Shown here: in pieces, positions 4,273-27,648 of the stretch
How positions within the stretch are numbered: position 1 is the first letter of the stretch
How the letters are laid out: each line of letters starts with the position of its first letter
IMG/VR virus record: IMGVR_UViG_3300030101_003097
Span: 1 to 31,220 of that record
Source of the DNA: a virus
Lineage: Duplodnaviria > Caudoviricetes
Strand: one strand, 5' to 3'
DNA length: 31,220 nucleotides
The notes under the pieces: generated by a model
Databases searched by the model: none
What the model was told of the DNA's origin: nothing
What the model saw: the letters and a program-made list of their open reading frames with translations, nothing else
Made by a program: the position numbers and the translations under genes

Positions 4273-4616
4273 AAGAACCCAAACTACCTTTACAAGCCCA
4301 GATATTTATAGATCATTTAACTATTGGGCTTGATAGTTTTGATCTTAATTTTGAAGATTACGGTGCTACTTACGTTAACCATAAAGAGCATGGGGTAGCA
4401 ATTATGTTTTCGCAAGTAAAAGTCGCTGAACACTCCGAAAGTTGTCGCTTAAAAAACTCTATTATCGTTAGCGGTTTAGGCGTTCACTTTAGTAAAGAAC
4501 AAATATTTCCTTTTACCAATGAACAACCGCCCTCGCATCTAGCGATATTAATTTTATCGGCGATAGTAAAAGATACACCTTTGCAGTTTATTTGCGAGGA
4601 ATGTCATGGAGCATAA
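4269..4616 (+). CDS. hypothetical protein
   Basis: 115 aa; TTG start overlaps the upstream stop; C-terminal CxxC (C110/C113). Confidence 0.6.
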   Translation: MKEPKLPLQAQIFIDHLTIGLDSFDLNFEDYGATYVNHKEHGVAIMFSQVKVAEHSESCRLKNSIIVSGLGVHFSKEQIFPFTNEQPPSHLAILILSAIVKDTPLQFICEECHGA

Positions 4617-5940
4617 AAAACCTTTTAATAGAGCTTTAAAAAGAACCTTAGAAAGAAAAGCAAAAGAAAGTCCTTATACTTTCGCACAGATTGCAGAAGT
4701 TTATAGAAGAGGTCAAGGAGCCTATTTATCTAAAGGTAACCGAAACGTATCTATGGCTCAGTGGGCTATGGCTAGAGTAAATAAATTTTTAAGGGGAGGT
4801 GGAATAGACACCGATATTGCTAAAAATCGTAAAAGACAAAAAAAAGAACTTGATTATTTAGAACGTTATGGAAAAGGCTTACCAAAAGAAGTATCGCAAA
4901 CTATAGGTATAGAAGGAGGTCAAATTCTTACTTTACCTTCCGGCGTGACCGTTTCTTTAGCCCCAAGCGGTAAGTATGAAATATTAGAAGAAAAACCGAA
5001 AGAAGAACCTAAAGACGAGATCCCTAAAGAAATCAAAAGAAAGTTTCCTCATATAACCGTAAGCAAAAACTATAGCGAAACGGAAATAGCTTTTCTTTTT
5101 AAATACATTTCCCCCGTTGGTTATTACGAGTGGCATAAATTAGCTTCTAATTTAATATTTAATTCTAAAAATTGGAACGCCCAACAGATATTTCAAGTTT
5201 TTTCTGCACCGGCTTATTATTTAACAGATGAACTAAGTACCGCCTTTTTAGATACTCCTATACACGAATTAAAAATAGAAAAAAACCCCCAAATAATTAA
5301 TAACCACTTTTTTGTTTTACAAAGTAATGAAATAAATTTAGTTAATTATATGTTTATAGATACCGAGACCGGTCTTAATGATGTCGAGGTAGTTTGCCAT
5401 CTAAGCACCAAAAGTAGGTTTATAAGGTCCGAAGGCATAACGTTAGGCAAAGAAAGTAAACAACGTTTTATGTTTGGTTTTAATTGGAATAACCTTAACG
5501 CTATAAGAACTAACAATATTTCTAAGGCCGTAAACTCCCCGTTATGGATAAATAAAAGTAAAGACTACACGTTCGACGAACTTCCTAGAACCTACCAACA
5601 GCAGTTTTTGATAGTAGTAAATTTAATTTTATTTATGAATCAAGAGCCGGATATAACCGTCGAATACTTACCGCCGAGCCAAACTATACCTATACAACGA
5701 GAAATGAATAGGTCCGGTAAATTTAAGCCTAGAGCGGTTACTTGGATTGGTAAGGAGTTTAGCGAGCGTGTAATTAAGTTACGCCCTAAAACCGATATGC
5801 TAGAGGTAAAAGAAGCCGGTATTCCTAGACGACCTCATTGGCGAAGGGGACATTGGCATACGGTCTGTCAAGGTTTTAAACGTAGGCAACGCAAACTTAA
5901 ATGGTTTGAACCTTGTTATGTAAAAGGAAAAAATTTATAA
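4606..5940 (+). CDS. 444-aa protein: N-terminal DUF5824-like basic module fused to a domain ending in an HWRRGHW motif
   Basis: N-terminus paralogous to the ORF at 27219-27470; C-terminal PRRPHWRRGHW...KW..P..V motif seen in uncharacterised phage proteins. Confidence 0.75.
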   Translation: MEHKKPFNRALKRTLERKAKESPYTFAQIAEVYRRGQGAYLSKGNRNVSMAQWAMARVNKFLRGGGIDTDIAKNRKRQKKELDYLERYGKGLPKEVSQTIGIEGGQILTLPSGVTVSLAPSGKYEILEEKPKEEPKDEIPKEIKRKFPHITVSKNYSETEIAFLFKYISPVGYYEWHKLASNLIFNSKNWNAQQIFQVFSAPAYYLTDELSTAFLDTPIHELKIEKNPQIINNHFFVLQSNEINLVNYMFIDTETGLNDVEVVCHLSTKSRFIRSEGITLGKESKQRFMFGFNWNNLNAIRTNNISKAVNSPLWINKSKDYTFDELPRTYQQQFLIVVNLILFMNQEPDITVEYLPPSQTIPIQREMNRSGKFKPRAVTWIGKEFSERVIKLRPKTDMLEVKEAGIPRRPHWRRGHWHTVCQGFKRRQRKLKWFEPCYVKGKNL

Positions 5941-5947: not shown

Positions 5948-6238
5948 ATGAGAAGAGATCAAACGCCGTCAGGTTTCAAGCTTAAAAAGCTAAAAGAACT
6001 AAGACTACAAAAATTAGAAAAAAATTTATTAGAGGTTCACTTAAAAGGACAAGATCATTATATATTTATGAACGAAAGAGGAAAGGCTCAAATAGTAACG
6101 GGCGACGGTAATTGGGTTACGGAACATATAAGAACCGCCGTTTTAAAATTTAATTATGAAGTAGATAAAACCGAAAAAATGTTAATAAGAGACTTTACCG
6201 ACGAAGAAATTATTGCTTTCGAAAAAGCTTACGAATAA
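5948..6238 (+). CDS. hypothetical protein
   Basis: 96-aa ORF; overlaps the convergent gene by 29 nt. Confidence 0.7.
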   Translation: MRRDQTPSGFKLKKLKELRLQKLEKNLLEVHLKGQDHYIFMNERGKAQIVTGDGNWVTEHIRTAVLKFNYEVDKTEKMLIRDFTDEEIIAFEKAYE

Positions 6239-6482
6239 ATTTAAAACGTTTTTTTCTCATTTCAAAAACTGCATTTAGGGCCTCTAGCTCTACTAACCTT
6301 CCTAACATAGAAGCCATAAAAACATCTTGTTTCATTTGATGTCGTACTAAATGTGTGCAATATCGTTTAATACTTACAATGTCATCACTAGCCATAATAT
6401 CCCTACAACGTAATTCGACCGATAGCTCTAACTCTGCGGGAGCCGGTTCTATATCTATGTTAAGGAATTTAGTAACTTTCAT
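6210..6482 (-). CDS. helix-loop-helix protein, possibly NblA-like
   Basis: 90 aa with two amphipathic helices in an NblA-like hydrophobic register (see finding); ATGA-coupled to the upstream 53-aa ORF. Confidence 0.55.
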   Translation of the reverse strand: MKVTKFLNIDIEPAPAELELSVELRCRDIMASDDIVSIKRYCTHLVRHQMKQDVFMASMLGRLVELEALNAVFEMRKKRFKFIRKLFRKQ

Positions 6483-6640
6483 TTGACCGGAAACAATTTT
6501 TCTTCGATCATTTTGACGATCGCGTCGTCGACGTCATTGTCTGATTTAGCTGCCAAATCTTTTAAAAGGCTTAAAGCCGCCTTGCGTAGACTTTCACTTT
6601 TTCCAAACTTGATAAATAAACCAATTAGAAATTTAGACAT
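6479..6640 (-). CDS. 53-aa conserved cyanophage-type amphipathic protein (SDNxxDD motif), not in ORF track
   Basis: MSKFLIGLFIKFGKSESLRKAALSLLKDLAAKSDNDVDDAIVKMIEEKLFPVK*; promoter-like box 21 nt upstream. Confidence 0.8.
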   Translation of the reverse strand: MSKFLIGLFIKFGKSESLRKAALSLLKDLAAKSDNDVDDAIVKMIEEKLFPVK

Positions 6641-6749: not shown

Positions 6750-7022
6750 ATGGAAGAAAAAGAAGAAAAAGACGGTTTAGGTTTTTTAGGAAACGCCGTT
6801 CAAATTGTAATTTTAGCTTGGTCTTTAGCTGTTATTTCTTGGTCTTATTTTAATCCTAATCCTACTAGGCAAATAGATACCACGTTCGCCGCCGGCTTAC
6901 TAAGTGCCGTAATGTCTAACTACGGGCTAAATGTCAAAAAGGCTACGGACAAAAAGAAACAAAATGGTAATGTTAATATAGTAGATAACAAAGATTCCAA
7001 AGTTGGAGTTGTAAAAAAATGA
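6750..7022 (+). CDS. two-TM membrane protein, holin-like (90 aa)
   Basis: Likely true start ATG 6750 (MEEKEEKD...); two hydrophobic segments around IDTTF; basic C-terminal tail; holin function inferred from topology. Confidence 0.6.
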   Translation: MEEKEEKDGLGFLGNAVQIVILAWSLAVISWSYFNPNPTRQIDTTFAAGLLSAVMSNYGLNVKKATDKKKQNGNVNIVDNKDSKVGVVKK

Positions 7023-7534
7023 AGAAAGCTTTAGCACTTTTTTGTTTATTACCTACGGCGGCATTTGCCGATATAAAACAGGAATTTGTAACTTCGGCTC
7101 AAATAACAGTCGATATGCCTTATTCAGTAACTAATAAAGTCGGTACAACTTATAGCTTAAGTGGTAACAATATTACGCCTTCGGTAACTATAGGAGATAC
7201 TACAACATCGGGAAAGATCGGGGGGATAAATGTAGGAAGTCTTACAAGTGGTGTCCCCGCTATGATTCAAACCGATACTACAGTAACCACGAGCGGCTCT
7301 GCTTTCAGCAAAACGGAATCTGTAATCATGGGCGATTCGTCTCCCTCAGCGATAACGCCAAGTAGTGGAATCGCGGCTTTACCTCACTTAGGGGGACAAA
7401 CTACCGTTGGTTCGGGCGGCACGGCGGGGACTTTAGCTTTAACGTCATTGAGTTCCGGTGTTCACACTTGTACCGCCGGCGGGTCGGGAACTAGCTGTAT
7501 AGGCTCGACTAAAGTTACTATTACAATTGACTAA
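7019..7534 (+). CDS. exported Ser/Thr/Gly-rich beta protein
   Basis: Signal peptide MKKALALFCLLPTAAFA|; C-terminal Cys pair; ATGA coupling. Confidence 0.8.
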   Translation: MKKALALFCLLPTAAFADIKQEFVTSAQITVDMPYSVTNKVGTTYSLSGNNITPSVTIGDTTTSGKIGGINVGSLTSGVPAMIQTDTTVTTSGSAFSKTESVIMGDSSPSAITPSSGIAALPHLGGQTTVGSGGTAGTLALTSLSSGVHTCTAGGSGTSCIGSTKVTITID

Positions 7535-7958
7535 ATATTGGATATTAATATTTTTACTAATACCGGTAAAAGCTTTAGCAGTTCCGGTGGTTCCTCAATT
7601 CAGATCGGGCTCAAGTACGACTTCTAGCACAAGCGAAAGTGTAATAAATGAAACCATAACTAGCTATCAATTTAGAAGCGGATATACCTATAGTGCAAGC
7701 GGCCATAATATAAAAAGTAATACGGATTATATAAACCCTACCGCTACTACTTTAGACCAACAAACCGTTAACGGTGTAAATTTTAGTTGGACTTCCCCAA
7801 ATTTAGAGGCTATTCCTCGTTGGTCTATTGTCAATCAGGGAGCGGCTTTTTCACTACAAGAAACGTTGATTACACCATCGTTAGATACTATAACTACAGT
7901 AACTAGGACTATAAACACATCAACAACTACAGAAACTACAACTACGTTTGGTCAATAA
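7527..7958 (+). CDS. exported Thr-rich beta protein (VPVVPQF motif)
   Basis: Signal peptide ...LIPVKALA|; TTG start overlaps the upstream gene. Confidence 0.75.
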   Translation: MTKYWILIFLLIPVKALAVPVVPQFRSGSSTTSSTSESVINETITSYQFRSGYTYSASGHNIKSNTDYINPTATTLDQQTVNGVNFSWTSPNLEAIPRWSIVNQGAAFSLQETLITPSLDTITTVTRTINTSTTTETTTTFGQ

Positions 7959-8533
7959 TTTTACTGTTATTACCTGTTAAACCTGTTTTTGCTAACACAA
8001 CCGTAGCCTCGCCTCAAAGCCAAAGTACAGGCGTAGTGAATAATAACGCCCAAATGATATTACCGTCGGCCACGCCGCAGTTTAGAATGTCGCAAGGAAT
8101 AGTTTGTAGTTCACCGAGCCTAACGATTACTCCCTACTTAACCGACGCTTGGAGTTTTAACCGACCTATCGAAACCGTTACGCGGCAAGCTATATATGAC
8201 GAAAATACCGGCGAAATAAAATATTACCAAGAAACGCCAAGATTCGAGAAAGATAATTACAACCTAAATTACGGTATAAGTATGCAAATAAATATTCCTT
8301 TAGGTAAAGCACCAGCACTATGCCACGAAGCAACCGAAGTTAATATAGCGGCCCAAAAACTTTTAATAGCCAAAACTAAAATGGAAATGGAATTATATAG
8401 GCTTAAATTATGCTCTGAGCAAGTAAAACTCGGTGTTCAATTTGTTGGTAAATACGCTACTACTTGCGAAGGTATTAAAGTTTCTATTCCGCCAAACCAA
8501 GTTTTGCCACATACACACAAGATTGAAAAGTAG
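7919..8533 (+). CDS. exported protein with amphipathic beta-hairpin and Cys-containing helices; start uncertain
   Basis: Frame is open from 7907 and encodes a signal-like WSIILLLLPVKPVFA upstream of the tracked GTG 8036; no ATG/GTG/TTG before it (ATC 7919 used provisionally); YGISMQINIPLG strand; four Cys. Confidence 0.65.
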   Translation: MNNYRNYNYVWSIILLLLPVKPVFANTTVASPQSQSTGVVNNNAQMILPSATPQFRMSQGIVCSSPSLTITPYLTDAWSFNRPIETVTRQAIYDENTGEIKYYQETPRFEKDNYNLNYGISMQINIPLGKAPALCHEATEVNIAAQKLLIAKTKMEMELYRLKLCSEQVKLGVQFVGKYATTCEGIKVSIPPNQVLPHTHKIEK

Positions 8534-8563
8534 ATAAGCTTACGGGTTTTTTAGCCTATCTAC
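8530..8563. terminator. hairpin at convergent gene junction
   Basis: GTAGATAAGCT (8530-8540) / AGCCTATCTAC (8553-8563); 11 bp with one G-U pair on the minus-strand RNA; both stop codons lie in the stem; no long U tract. Confidence 0.45.
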
Positions 8564-9200
8564 CGTTATTTATTTTATCTTTTTTCTTAGTCATTTTAGT
8601 AATTATTTGTTTTACTAACGGTTTTACAGCGTTAAGTATAAGCGGAGCAGAAGAGCCAACCAAAGCAAGACTAAAAACGCCAACAAATTGAGGTGCGGAG
8701 GGTATGTACTGGTCTTTCCATTCGACACTTTCATACAAAGTTATGCACTCACGCTTATTATCCGATAATTTATGGCCGATGACGACCTCTAATTTTTTTT
8801 CGTTACGAAAGTCACCCCGCCGTAAATCTTTATTAGAGGGACATTCCGGTATTACTATTTCTTCTTCTTTTTTTACTTCGTTGTTTACTTCCGGCATATC
8901 CGGTTTTGGTATTTCGGGCGTTTGGTCGTTAGATAAAGGTTCTTCGACCATAATTAAATTTTCCGGCGTGTAATCTAAAGGGAAAAAACTAGGGAATGGA
9001 AAGTCGCACGTCGTAAAAACTCCGTTAGGGTCGTCTAATAATAAATTTCTATTACCGGTATTTTTTATATCTCTATGTTGGTAAGTACAACCGATAACTT
9101 CTATATCTAAATTTTTAACCGAATGATTAATATACGGCGTATAGATAGGAACTATATCCGGTATATAAATATCCGGAATAGAAATATCTTTTATATCCAC
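8556..9200 (-). CDS. membrane-anchored protein with four Cys and a Pro/Glu-rich linker
   Basis: GC..H, C, CP, CI motifs; hydrophobic segment FVGVFSLALVGSSAPLIL followed by a basic tail. Confidence 0.75.
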   Translation of the reverse strand: MDIKDISIPDIYIPDIVPIYTPYINHSVKNLDIEVIGCTYQHRDIKNTGNRNLLLDDPNGVFTTCDFPFPSFFPLDYTPENLIMVEEPLSNDQTPEIPKPDMPEVNNEVKKEEEIVIPECPSNKDLRRGDFRNEKKLEVVIGHKLSDNKRECITLYESVEWKDQYIPSAPQFVGVFSLALVGSSAPLILNAVKPLVKQIITKMTKKKDKINNGR

Positions 9201-9424
9201 TAATTAGTTTTTAAAGGAGTGGGGATAGGTAAGCCAGTTGATCTTGGCATACGTTGGTCAATAATATCGGGGACAGTTGGCTTTAGATTAGAAAGTACCT
9301 CGTTAATCATTCGTGCCTTAAACTGCTCCGATGTAACGTATTTATATCCGAAATATCCCCCTCCTAACATTGACGCTGATATTATAAAACTTAAAATAGA
9401 TAATATTTGAGAAATTTTTGCCAT
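9200..9424 (-). CDS. small N-terminally anchored membrane protein
   Basis: TM ILSILSFIISASMLGGGYFGY, then a helix and a Pro-rich tail. Confidence 0.75.
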   Translation of the reverse strand: MAKISQILSILSFIISASMLGGGYFGYKYVTSEQFKARMINEVLSNLKPTVPDIIDQRMPRSTGLPIPTPLKTN

Positions 9425-9554
9425 GATAAAATTTGCTATTTTAAAAGCACTATCTTTTTCAAGTGTACTTGTATTACTGCTTATTGTAGCCCTATCCCCT
9501 CTCTACGTCACTATGGGGATAATGACAAGGCAAATGCACGAAAAGGTTAACTAA
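9423..9554 (+). CDS. 43-aa single-TM peptide, antisense to the late operon, not in ORF track
   Basis: MIKFAILKALSFSSVLVLLLIVALSPLYVTMGIMTRQMHEKVN*; spans the whole gap between two minus-strand genes. Confidence 0.55.
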   Translation: MIKFAILKALSFSSVLVLLLIVALSPLYVTMGIMTRQMHEKVN

Positions 9555-26955: not shown

Positions 26956-27222
26956 TTAACAGTTCCATTTTTCTAAAGCCAAAGCTTTTCTTGTTTTACG
27001 ACCTTTACTATCTCTAAGAGGTCCTTTAACACCGGCCATTCTTGCACAAAACGATTTTTTTCTTGCTTTTTCTGATTTAGTTAAATTTTTTGTTTTAGTA
27101 ACGGGTGCTTTTAAATTACTACCGGTTTCCCTGTTTATTTTATCTCTTCCTTTTTTAGTTAAACCGCCCGTAGGACTTTTATGTTCCTTTTTAAGCTTTA
27201 CCGGTTTTCTTTTCTTTTTCAT
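26956..27222 (-). CDS. basic small protein (DUF6321-like)
   Basis: GGLT.KGR...N..TGSNLKAPV...RKKSFCARM...W.C; family name from memory. Confidence 0.7.
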   Translation of the reverse strand: MKKKRKPVKLKKEHKSPTGGLTKKGRDKINRETGSNLKAPVTKTKNLTKSEKARKKSFCARMAGVKGPLRDSKGRKTRKALALEKWNC

Positions 27223-27470
27223 TTTCGATACCTTTTATAAATAGCCATATCAACGGTCCTTGCTTTATCGCCACGCATATAACTATTAACACGACCCATC
27301 GCCCAAGCAGCCATACTTACATTTCTAGAGCCACCGCCTAAATAAGCTCCCTGTCCTTTTCTATAAACAGCAGCTAACTCGCCATACTTAAATTTAGTAC
27401 CGTCAGCCTTTTTTTTAAGAGCTTTTACGACGTTTGCGTTTAGTGGTTTTGCTTTTGGTCTTGTTGACAT
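27219..27470 (-). CDS. basic small protein (DUF5824-like, C-terminal half)
   Basis: L..VY..G.GA......R......WA..RVN.; ATG 27470 preferred over TTG 27479. Confidence 0.75.
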   Translation of the reverse strand: MSTRPKAKPLNANVVKALKKKADGTKFKYGELAAVYRKGQGAYLGGGSRNVSMAAWAMGRVNSYMRGDKARTVDMAIYKRYRK

Positions 27471-27648
27471 TTTGTGCAACCCTTGATTTTTGTACGGCTT
27501 TTATATCTATAAATAACCCTTTTTTATAGAGTTCGGCGGTTTTTTTTATTTCAGCAGCTTTAGCTGCCCTATTTTTAGAACCGCTAAGATACTTTTTAGG
27601 GACGTTTGTTTTTTTATCCCTTGCTACTCTTCTTAGTTTTCGGCTCAT
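27415..27648 (-). CDS. basic small protein (PKKYL.G motif)
   Basis: 77 aa, very Lys/Arg-rich; overlaps both neighbours. Confidence 0.7.
   Translation of the reverse strand: MSRKLRRVARDKKTNVPKKYLSGSKNRAAKAAEIKKTAELYKKGLFIDIKAVQKSRVAQNVNKTKSKTTKRKRRKSS

What the first reader, a model, noticed from the sequence alone, without database searches (positions are those of the whole stretch)
6750..9554. Seven-gene cell-envelope module at the lysis position with no recognisable endolysin or lipoprotein spanin
Seen: every ORF here has a TM segment or signal peptide. They are a 2-TM protein, three coupled exported beta-rich proteins (two with Cys pairs), a convergent C-anchored 4-Cys protein, an N-anchored helical protein and a 43-aa TM peptide. 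The third exported protein has a long amphipathic hairpin ending YGISMQINIPLG followed by helices, reminiscent of oligomeric outer-membrane channels (TolC/CsgG-like architecture). I recall similar hypothetical genes in other cyanophages but know of no assigned function. Inference: a phage-encoded trans-envelope machine, such as a non-canonical lysis/outer-membrane disruption system, a secretion or surface-fibre system, or a receptor-masking complex.
Basis: partly seen in the sequence, partly recalled or inferred. Interest (0 to 1): 0.78.

Follow-up and report, generated by a model that had tools for sequence, protein, structure and literature searches.

The report
Candidate spanin substitute of marine cyanophages
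A set of membrane and exported proteins shared by viruses of ocean cyanobacteria of all three tail types, one of them related to an uncharacterised protein in cyanobacterial chromosomes, likely forms the long-missing machine these viruses use to breach the host's outer membrane at lysis.

Summary
The module is real. It appears to be the cyanophage cluster of hypothetical genes plus 'plasmid stability protein' noted by Sullivan et al. 2010, still without a function; this scan flagged it twice before on other DNA. Its core (A, C/gp166, D/gp165, E) occurs in myo-, sipho- and T7-like podoviruses of picocyanobacteria. It sits between tail fibre and small terminase in P-SSP10, has an endolysin gene in the same locus in 25 of 25 long loci of one group, and follows a late-promoter-like motif in T4-like phages. 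D is predicted to be an exported amphipathic beta-hairpin plus long helix, E a C-terminally anchored inner-membrane protein. No lipobox, and no TolC, CsgG, spanin or holin family match. New here: D has chromosomal, non-prophage homologues in cyanobacteria beside other exported beta-proteins, and D usually begins 45-56 codons inside C in the -1 frame; this lineage has a stop in that leader. Best reading (0.45): a non-lipoprotein outer-membrane-breaching (spanin-like) system, probably co-opted from a host envelope apparatus. Main rival: a non-lytic surface structure or channel (0.28). No function or interaction is shown.

The parts
6479..6640 (-).
6750..7022 (+). A: 90-aa DUF6450/phrog_721 inner-membrane protein, one strong and one weak hydrophobic segment; holin candidate (inferred)
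7019..7534 (+). B: 171-aa signal-peptide-bearing Ser/Thr/Gly-rich beta protein ('OMP1', gp167, phrog_564), paralogue of C
7527..7958 (+). C: 143-aa signal-peptide-bearing DUF6322 protein (gp166, phrog_650); model has two ~23-residue antiparallel terminal strands, polar on both faces, and a small beta head
7787..7906 (+). Remnant of D's overlapping -1-frame leader inside C (TTG ...
7907..8533 (+). D: gp165 (phrog_848/1755), exported protein with amphipathic beta-hairpin, 40-residue helix and four conserved Cys; start in this lineage uncertain (near-cognate ATC at 7919 is the best candidate)
8556..9200 (-). E: 214-aa gp164 (phrog_570); no signal peptide, four Cys, Pro/Glu-rich linker, C-terminal TM then basic amphipathic tail (predicted N-out/C-in); i-spanin-like candidate
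9200..9424 (-). F: 74-aa gp162 (phrog_568, labelled 'plasmid stability'); N-terminal TM plus amphipathic helix
9423..9554 (+). G: 43-aa single-TM peptide, real but lineage-specific accessory gene

Best explanation
These genes likely encode a late-made, lipoprotein-free machine that breaches the outer membrane of the picocyanobacterial host at lysis, doing the job that spanins do in other phages. Proposed steps, all inferred: D, C and B are exported by Sec. D oligomerises with its amphipathic hairpin in the outer membrane and its disulfide-tied helix in the periplasm. C and B add polar beta-strand stems, forming a periplasmic tube. E (C-terminal anchor) and F (N-terminal anchor) hold the assembly to the inner membrane. 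A, with H and G as helpers, permeabilises the inner membrane and times the event. Once the wall is weakened, the linked membranes are joined or torn. The D component was probably acquired from a chromosomal cyanobacterial envelope operon of unknown function.
For: Morphotype-independent but host-specific: D matches 445 phage records, named as Synechococcus, Prochlorococcus, cyanophage, Tiamatvirus, marine or uncultured virus, from 37 kb to 244 kb. Position: in T7-like P-SSP10, E-A-C-D-H lie between tail fibre and small terminase, where T7 holin 17.5 lies (recalled); in this window and P-HS2 they lie at the end of the tail operon. In a third phage group a PHROG 'endolysin' (phrog_10051, E 1e-50 or better, 3 of 3 tested) and a cyanophage OMP-barrel gene are in the same locus in 25 of 25 long loci. 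In T4-like loci NATAAATA lies upstream of B in 20 of 45 and of A in 27 of 54, versus 1.9% background, 1 of 59 for F and 0 of 67 for E (motif recalled as the late promoter). Topology: D has an outer-membrane-type alternating strand and plain signal peptides in distant homologues; E has a C-terminal TM followed by net +8 charge in 158 homologues. Kongari et al. 2018 (PMC6139136, section 15 read) found no spanins in 20 Prochlorococcus/Synechococcus phages and suggested that a type I C-anchored inner-membrane protein plus an OMP could act as spanins. In S-TIM5 the module genes are annotated hypothetical while flanking genes are annotated virion structural.
Against: No function is shown. D's host homologues sit in ordinary chromosomal context with no phage or lysis genes seen, so the family can do a non-lytic job. 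S-PM2 lacks the cluster (Sullivan 2010 passage) and is lytic (recalled). The P-HS2 record has a one-base loss in a T run that puts D out of frame with its leader, unlike MED4-117; this may be a sequencing error. No wall hydrolase family was found in this window or among 58 of 64 annotated P-HS2 genes (the other 6 are the cassette; the last 3 kb are unannotated), so wall breakdown is unexplained there. In T4-like phages the cassette sits beside psbA, hsp20 or metabolic genes, not structural genes. E has no signal peptide, so how its Cys domains would reach the periplasm is unexplained; the podovirus E lacks them. Kongari et al. also note that these hosts may need no spanin.
Confidence: 0.45

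Rival explanations
1. The cassette builds a non-lytic surface structure or channel on the infected cell, as its host relatives may do. D would be the outer-membrane anchor or exit pore and B/C the polymerising beta-strand subunits of a fibre or tube, serving receptor masking, superinfection exclusion, aggregation or grazer deterrence.
For: D homologues occur in 9 of 401 genomes sampled across the phylum and 33 of 401 in one picocyanobacterial family, typically next to one or two signal-peptide-bearing Ser/Thr-rich beta proteins, in picocyanobacteria often a paralogous pair ending in aromatic residues, like the B/C pair beside D. C's long strands are polar on both faces, as in a soluble tube. 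The cassette is absent from S-PM2.
Against: Phage B/C show no detectable homology to the host partners (hhalign below 1%). The inner-membrane genes A, E, F have no counterpart in the host loci. Lysis-type position and neighbouring endolysin. A late-promoter-like motif fits exclusion poorly.
Confidence: 0.28
2. The cassette is a complete alternative lysis system that also replaces the endolysin, for example a trans-envelope pore that ruptures the cell osmotically or recruits host autolysins.
For: No hydrolase family in this window or in P-HS2's annotated genes. Weak structural likeness of C and D to beta-barrel pore stems. An earlier scan note reports near exclusion with lysozymes (unchecked).
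Against: The full cassette coexists with an endolysin gene in 25 of 25 long loci of one group. S-SCSM1 carries both the cassette and wall hydrolases. The fold hits are not significant (E above 0.1, Z 2.6).
Confidence: 0.12
3. The proteins are virion or DNA-entry components, such as a tail-collar-like tube or trans-envelope ejection channel.
For: Adjacent to tail-fibre genes in small phages. C's best PDB hit is a podovirus upper-tail protein (8egr_I, E 4e-3, TM 0.26).
Against: Signal peptides and TM anchors imply export into the envelope. The same genes occur in three tail types. They are not annotated as structural in S-TIM5. I could not see virion proteome lists; in S-SCSM1 D was unannotated, so it could not have been detected.
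Confidence: 0.08
4. The cassette is a solute or nutrient channel, or an envelope-stress aid, that supports the infected cell.
For: In T4-like phages it sits among metabolic genes such as psbA, zwf, gnd and hsp20.
Against: The late-type motif, the lysis position in small phages, and no porin or transporter family match.
Confidence: 0.07

Closest known systems
[quoted passage not shown] 2010 (PMC3037559); Syn9 gp162-gp167
   Same: Same gene families and convergent layout (S-CAM22 and S-SCSM1 annotations); F matches phrog_568.
   Different: Published as a mobile cassette of unknown function in T4-like phages. Here it is in a lambda-like siphovirus, lacks gp163, and adds H and G. F looks like a membrane protein, not a plasmid partition factor.
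Two-component spanins (lambda Rz/Rz1, T4 PseT.3/PseT.2) and u-spanin (T1 gp11)
   Same: Works like (inferred): late inner-membrane-anchored and outer-membrane-directed proteins at the lysis position, periplasmic Cys, overlapping genes with start sites that gene callers miss.
   Different: No lipoprotein, no sequence match, more components, and a predicted integral beta-hairpin instead of a lipid anchor.
TolC/OEP channels, CsgG, FlgH L-ring
   Same: Amphipathic beta-hairpin ending in x-P-L, followed by a long helix.
   Different: One hairpin, about 170 residues, disulfides, no lipobox; no Pfam match; only weak FlgH hits (E 0.23) in the fold search.
Uncharacterised chromosomal cyanobacterial operon (loci L262-L264, L269, L274-L303)
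   Same: D homologue with the same four Cys (hhalign 98.5%, E 3e-15) beside exported beta-rich proteins.
   Different: Host D has a shorter hairpin and a normal signal peptide; its partners are not detectably homologous to B/C; no A, E or F.

Membership tests
Sullivan 2010 cyanophage cluster (Syn9 gp162-167) | Clustered hypothetical genes with the 'plasmid stability protein' | tested here: met
   phrog_568, 570, 848, 650, 564, 721; synteny with gp162-gp166 and OMP1 labels
Sullivan 2010 cyanophage cluster (Syn9 gp162-167) | One-to-one match to the T4-GC numbers | not tested
   Fig. S9 and the supplements of that paper were not opened
Two-component spanin | o-spanin: outer-membrane lipoprotein with a lipobox Cys after a signal peptide | tested here: not met
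   Only lipobox-like match is in E (residues 35-38), with no signal sequence before it
Two-component spanin | i-spanin: N-terminal TM plus periplasmic helices | tested here: inconclusive
   F has this layout but only about 50 periplasmic residues; no spanin family hit
u-spanin (T1 gp11) | N-terminal lipoprotein signal, C-terminal TM, no periplasmic Cys | tested here: not met
   E has the C-terminal TM only, and four Cys (features from PMC6139136)
TolC/OEP efflux channel | Pfam OEP match; two hairpin-helix repeats per protomer (recalled) | tested here: not met
   No Pfam hit at E 0.05; model has a single hairpin
TolC/OEP or CsgG | Structural match | tested here: inconclusive
   No Foldseek hit at E 0.001; best Z 4.9, to generic helices; model pLDDT 69
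CsgG curli channel | Lipoprotein with N-terminal Cys (recalled) | tested here: not met
   No Cys at D's mature N-terminus
Aerolysin-type beta pore-forming proteins | Shared fold with an amphipathic insertion hairpin | tested here: inconclusive
   C hits such stems only at E above 0.1, Z 2.6, and its long strands are polar on both faces
Holin | Small membrane protein in a lysis cassette that forms lethal inner-membrane lesions | not testable with these tools
   A has a fitting size and position; no holin family hit; second TM weak
Endolysin | Peptidoglycan-hydrolase domain | tested here: not met
   None in A-H by Pfam, PHROGs or NCBIfam
Plasmid stability protein | Soluble DNA-partition or toxin-antitoxin fold (recalled) | tested here: not met
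   F is TM-anchored in 171 homologues and has no such Pfam hit
Spinae/spinin | Subunit sequence | not testable with these tools
   No subunit gene in the passages read of PMC3517982 and PMC4390875

The most novel reading that the evidence does not exclude
Marine cyanophages of all tail types share a new class of lysis machine, unrelated to spanins. It is an oligomeric beta-barrel that starts in the outer membrane (D), is extended across the periplasm by polar beta-strand subunits (B, C) and is tied to the inner membrane (E, F). It was captured once from an undescribed cyanobacterial secretion or appendage system, and D's output is set by a conserved leader of about 45-55 codons overlapping C.
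Probability: 0.3. Interest if true: 0.92.

Novelty: categorically new. Interest (0 to 1): 0.72.

Why it matters
How Prochlorococcus and Synechococcus phages get through the host envelope is open: 20 of the 91 spanin-less phages in Kongari et al. 2018 infect these hosts. This cassette is a small, nameable, deletable candidate present across morphotypes, so the question becomes directly testable. The host homologues point to a second undescribed system on cyanobacterial chromosomes. The gene cluster itself is not new (2010); what lies outside known kinds is the protein machine, none of whose parts matched a family of known function. The 'plasmid stability' label appears wrong, and D is often missed or mis-started in annotations.

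Tried and rejected
Four copies of D in the complex predictor: no answer (median 0.39, mark 0.42, controls 0.00); not used as evidence. PDB sequence searches with profiles of B, C, D, host D and host partners: nothing significant. Foldseek and VIA-align on the C and D models: only weak long-hairpin or helix likenesses; the viral library returned C's own family. ESM Atlas: only the same unnamed families, no model held. Homology of B/C/E/F/A/H to host neighbours: not detected. A -1 frameshift fusion of C and D as the general mechanism is disfavoured: I saw no conserved slippery site by eye, stop depletion begins at a conserved ATG/GTG, and a third group uses an ordinary start with a short signal peptide. 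The TAG at 7904 is not a sequencing error: it is in L006-L009 and in contigs of runs from two further studies. The genome-contig scan gave 11 close hits that look like phage contigs in bins and single cells (judged from identity and cassette synteny). No RNA holder listed for this stretch. Sigma-70 and terminator scan at chance level. Spinae: no gene known, untestable. B was not folded (cap reached). Eight literature searches listed no paper giving the cassette a function; this library lacks most subscription papers, and I saw no per-gene expression or virion proteome table.
Full report
Setting. The window is a 31.2-kb virus record of a lambda-like siphovirus: terminase, portal, capsid and tail genes run on the minus strand to about 9551, and recombination genes run on plus (for relatives). 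Its closest named relatives are Prochlorococcus phages P-HS2, MED4-184 and MED4-117. The module lies between the two arms.

Observation. The seven ORFs are present, here called A-G. Each has a hydrophobic segment in a hydropathy scan. PHROGs places A-F in families of unknown function, except F, labelled 'plasmid stability'. Pfam gives only DUF6450 (A) and DUF6322 (C); NCBIfam gives nothing. B and C are paralogues (hhalign 89.7%, E 2e-6). A's second TM segment is weak. G is under purifying selection but confined to close relatives. H (6479-6640) belongs with the module.

Already noted in print. Sullivan et al. [quoted passage not shown] The match to this module rests on F and on the gp162-gp167 labels; I did not see their Fig. 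S9. Two earlier notes of this scan call the same cassette a probable lysis module.

Distribution and order. D matches 403 phage records with the window's protein and 445 with a more central homologue, including T4-like, S-TIM5-like, sipho- and T7-like phages. Three sets of 80 viral loci were fetched. Among those with at least 3 kb upstream and 2.5 kb downstream of D, B, C and E were present in 19 of 19, 24 of 24 and 25 of 25; A in 19, 22 and 25; F in 19, 21 and 25. In T7-like P-SSP10 a reduced set (short E, A, one B/C gene, D, H) lies between tail fibre and small terminase. In the third set a C39-peptidase gene matching PHROG 'endolysin' and a Phage_OMP gene occur in 25 of 25 long loci. In T4-like loci NATAAATA precedes B in 20 of 45 and A in 27 of 54, against 1.9% background; I recall this as the late promoter and saw no expression data.

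Anatomy. The C model (pLDDT 78, pTM 0.40) has two long antiparallel terminal strands and a small head; the strands are polar on both faces. The D model (pLDDT 69, pTM 0.38) has a long hairpin and a 40-residue helix; residues 90-104 alternate hydrophobic and polar across 119 sequences, and four Cys are at least 90% conserved. Distant D homologues have ordinary signal peptides. E lacks one but ends in a TM segment and a tail of mean net charge +8 (158 sequences). No structure search gave a significant match outside the families themselves.

The start of D. In 127 of 129 distinct junctions D lies in the -1 frame of C; the exceptions are P-HS2 and L148, where D is interrupted. Stops in that frame are depleted over C's last 45 codons in the close group (1 seen, 83 expected; 34 dereplicated of 73) and last 55 in the T4-like group (0 seen, 110 expected; 56 of 71, L148 left out), but not further upstream or in B. 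The boundary coincides with ATG/GTG in 67 of 74 and ATG in 71 of 71 loci; P-SSP10 has a similar leader. In this lineage TAG 7904-7906 closes the leader (window, L006-L009, and contigs of two more studies), yet 15 of 16 changes between 7958 and 8035 are synonymous in D's frame. So D is still translated from upstream of GTG 8036. ATC at 7919 would give a normal 25-residue signal peptide; read-through or a frameshift is not excluded.

Host homologues. The D profile hit 4 of 400 other genomes in the host phylum; a host profile hit 9 of 401; one picocyanobacterial D hit 33 of 401 in its family, two of them marginal. Homology is firm (hhalign 97.5% and 98.5%; PHROG hits). Sources label such proteins Nostoc, Calothrix, Fischerella, Merismopedia and Synechococcus hypothetical proteins. 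The three 18-kb contexts read hold housekeeping-type genes and no phage genes I could recognise from the translations. Neighbours are exported Ser/Thr-rich beta proteins, often a paralogous pair (98.5%), with no Pfam match and no detectable homology to B/C. In an unrooted tree of 55 D proteins the 21 host rows form one side of a branch (93/95), which fits one old transfer but gives no direction. Genomes with clear matches are 2.0-4.1 Mb, which suggests Synechococcus/Cyanobium rather than Prochlorococcus (inference).

Mechanism. Shown: co-occurrence, position, predicted topology, host homology of D. Inferred: late expression, assembly into one complex, and function. I favour an outer-membrane-breaching role (0.45), because a tail-independent, host-specific, late envelope module beside endolysins fills the gap that Kongari et al. 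2018 describe (PMC6139136; passages and section 15 read), and E plus D match the alternative topology they propose. Against it: the non-lytic host context, absence from S-PM2, the P-HS2 frameshift, no hydrolase found in this window or in 58 scanned P-HS2 genes, and E's unexplained export. A non-lytic surface structure or channel is the main rival (0.28).

Other papers seen. PMC9602691: passages and supplement part 3 of 7; the virion protein list was not seen. PMC7885011, PMC9860041, PMC3517982, PMC4390875: passages only, none addressing these genes. PMC8776855 and PMC12695635: listing only.

Verdict. Real and conserved; the cluster has been known since 2010 but is unexplained. No part belongs to a family of known function by the tests run. 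Interest 0.72.

Noticed in passing
window 7787-7958; L006-L165; L305:3881-4090: A conserved -1-frame overlap gives D a 45-56-codon basic leader inside C in sipho-, myo- and podoviruses; closed by TAG in this lineage, implying a near-cognate start or read-through.
   Followed up: yes
L262-L264, L269, L271, L274-L303: Undescribed chromosomal cyanobacterial operon: D homologue, exported beta-rich proteins, and often small exported Cys-rich proteins; no Pfam match. Candidate appendage or secretion system.
   Followed up: partly
L001:6940-6960 vs L306:3940-3960: The P-HS2 record has seven T where MED4-117 has eight, just after C's stop, shifting D out of frame with its leader; error or real variant.
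   Followed up: partly
window 6210-6482 (-): 90-aa gene that co-occurs with the module (33 of 80 and 43 of 80 loci); by eye it resembles NblA (recalled) but had no Pfam or PHROG hit.
   Followed up: partly
window 4606-5940 (+) and 27219-27479 (-): The 444-aa protein begins with a DUF5824-like segment also found as a stand-alone gene in the head region: a fusion or duplication.
   Followed up: no
L003:8396-8989 (-): gp163, present in 50 of 80 T4-like loci but not here, has a Gly/Ala-rich hydrophobic C-terminal stretch resembling a glycine zipper (by eye).
   Followed up: no
L203:9954-10307 (-) and relatives: Phage_OMP (PF24653) beta-barrel gene near F in 60 of 80 third-group loci and 17 of 80 T4-like loci; may be a further cassette member.
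   Followed up: partly
L148, after the end of C: D is displaced from C by an insertion that looks like a homing endonuclease (by eye), and stops reappear in the overlap frame.
   Followed up: partly
L166-L176: Several bacterial or archaeal bins and single-cell genomes hold cyanophage-like contigs with this cassette, probably contamination or infected cells.
   Followed up: no
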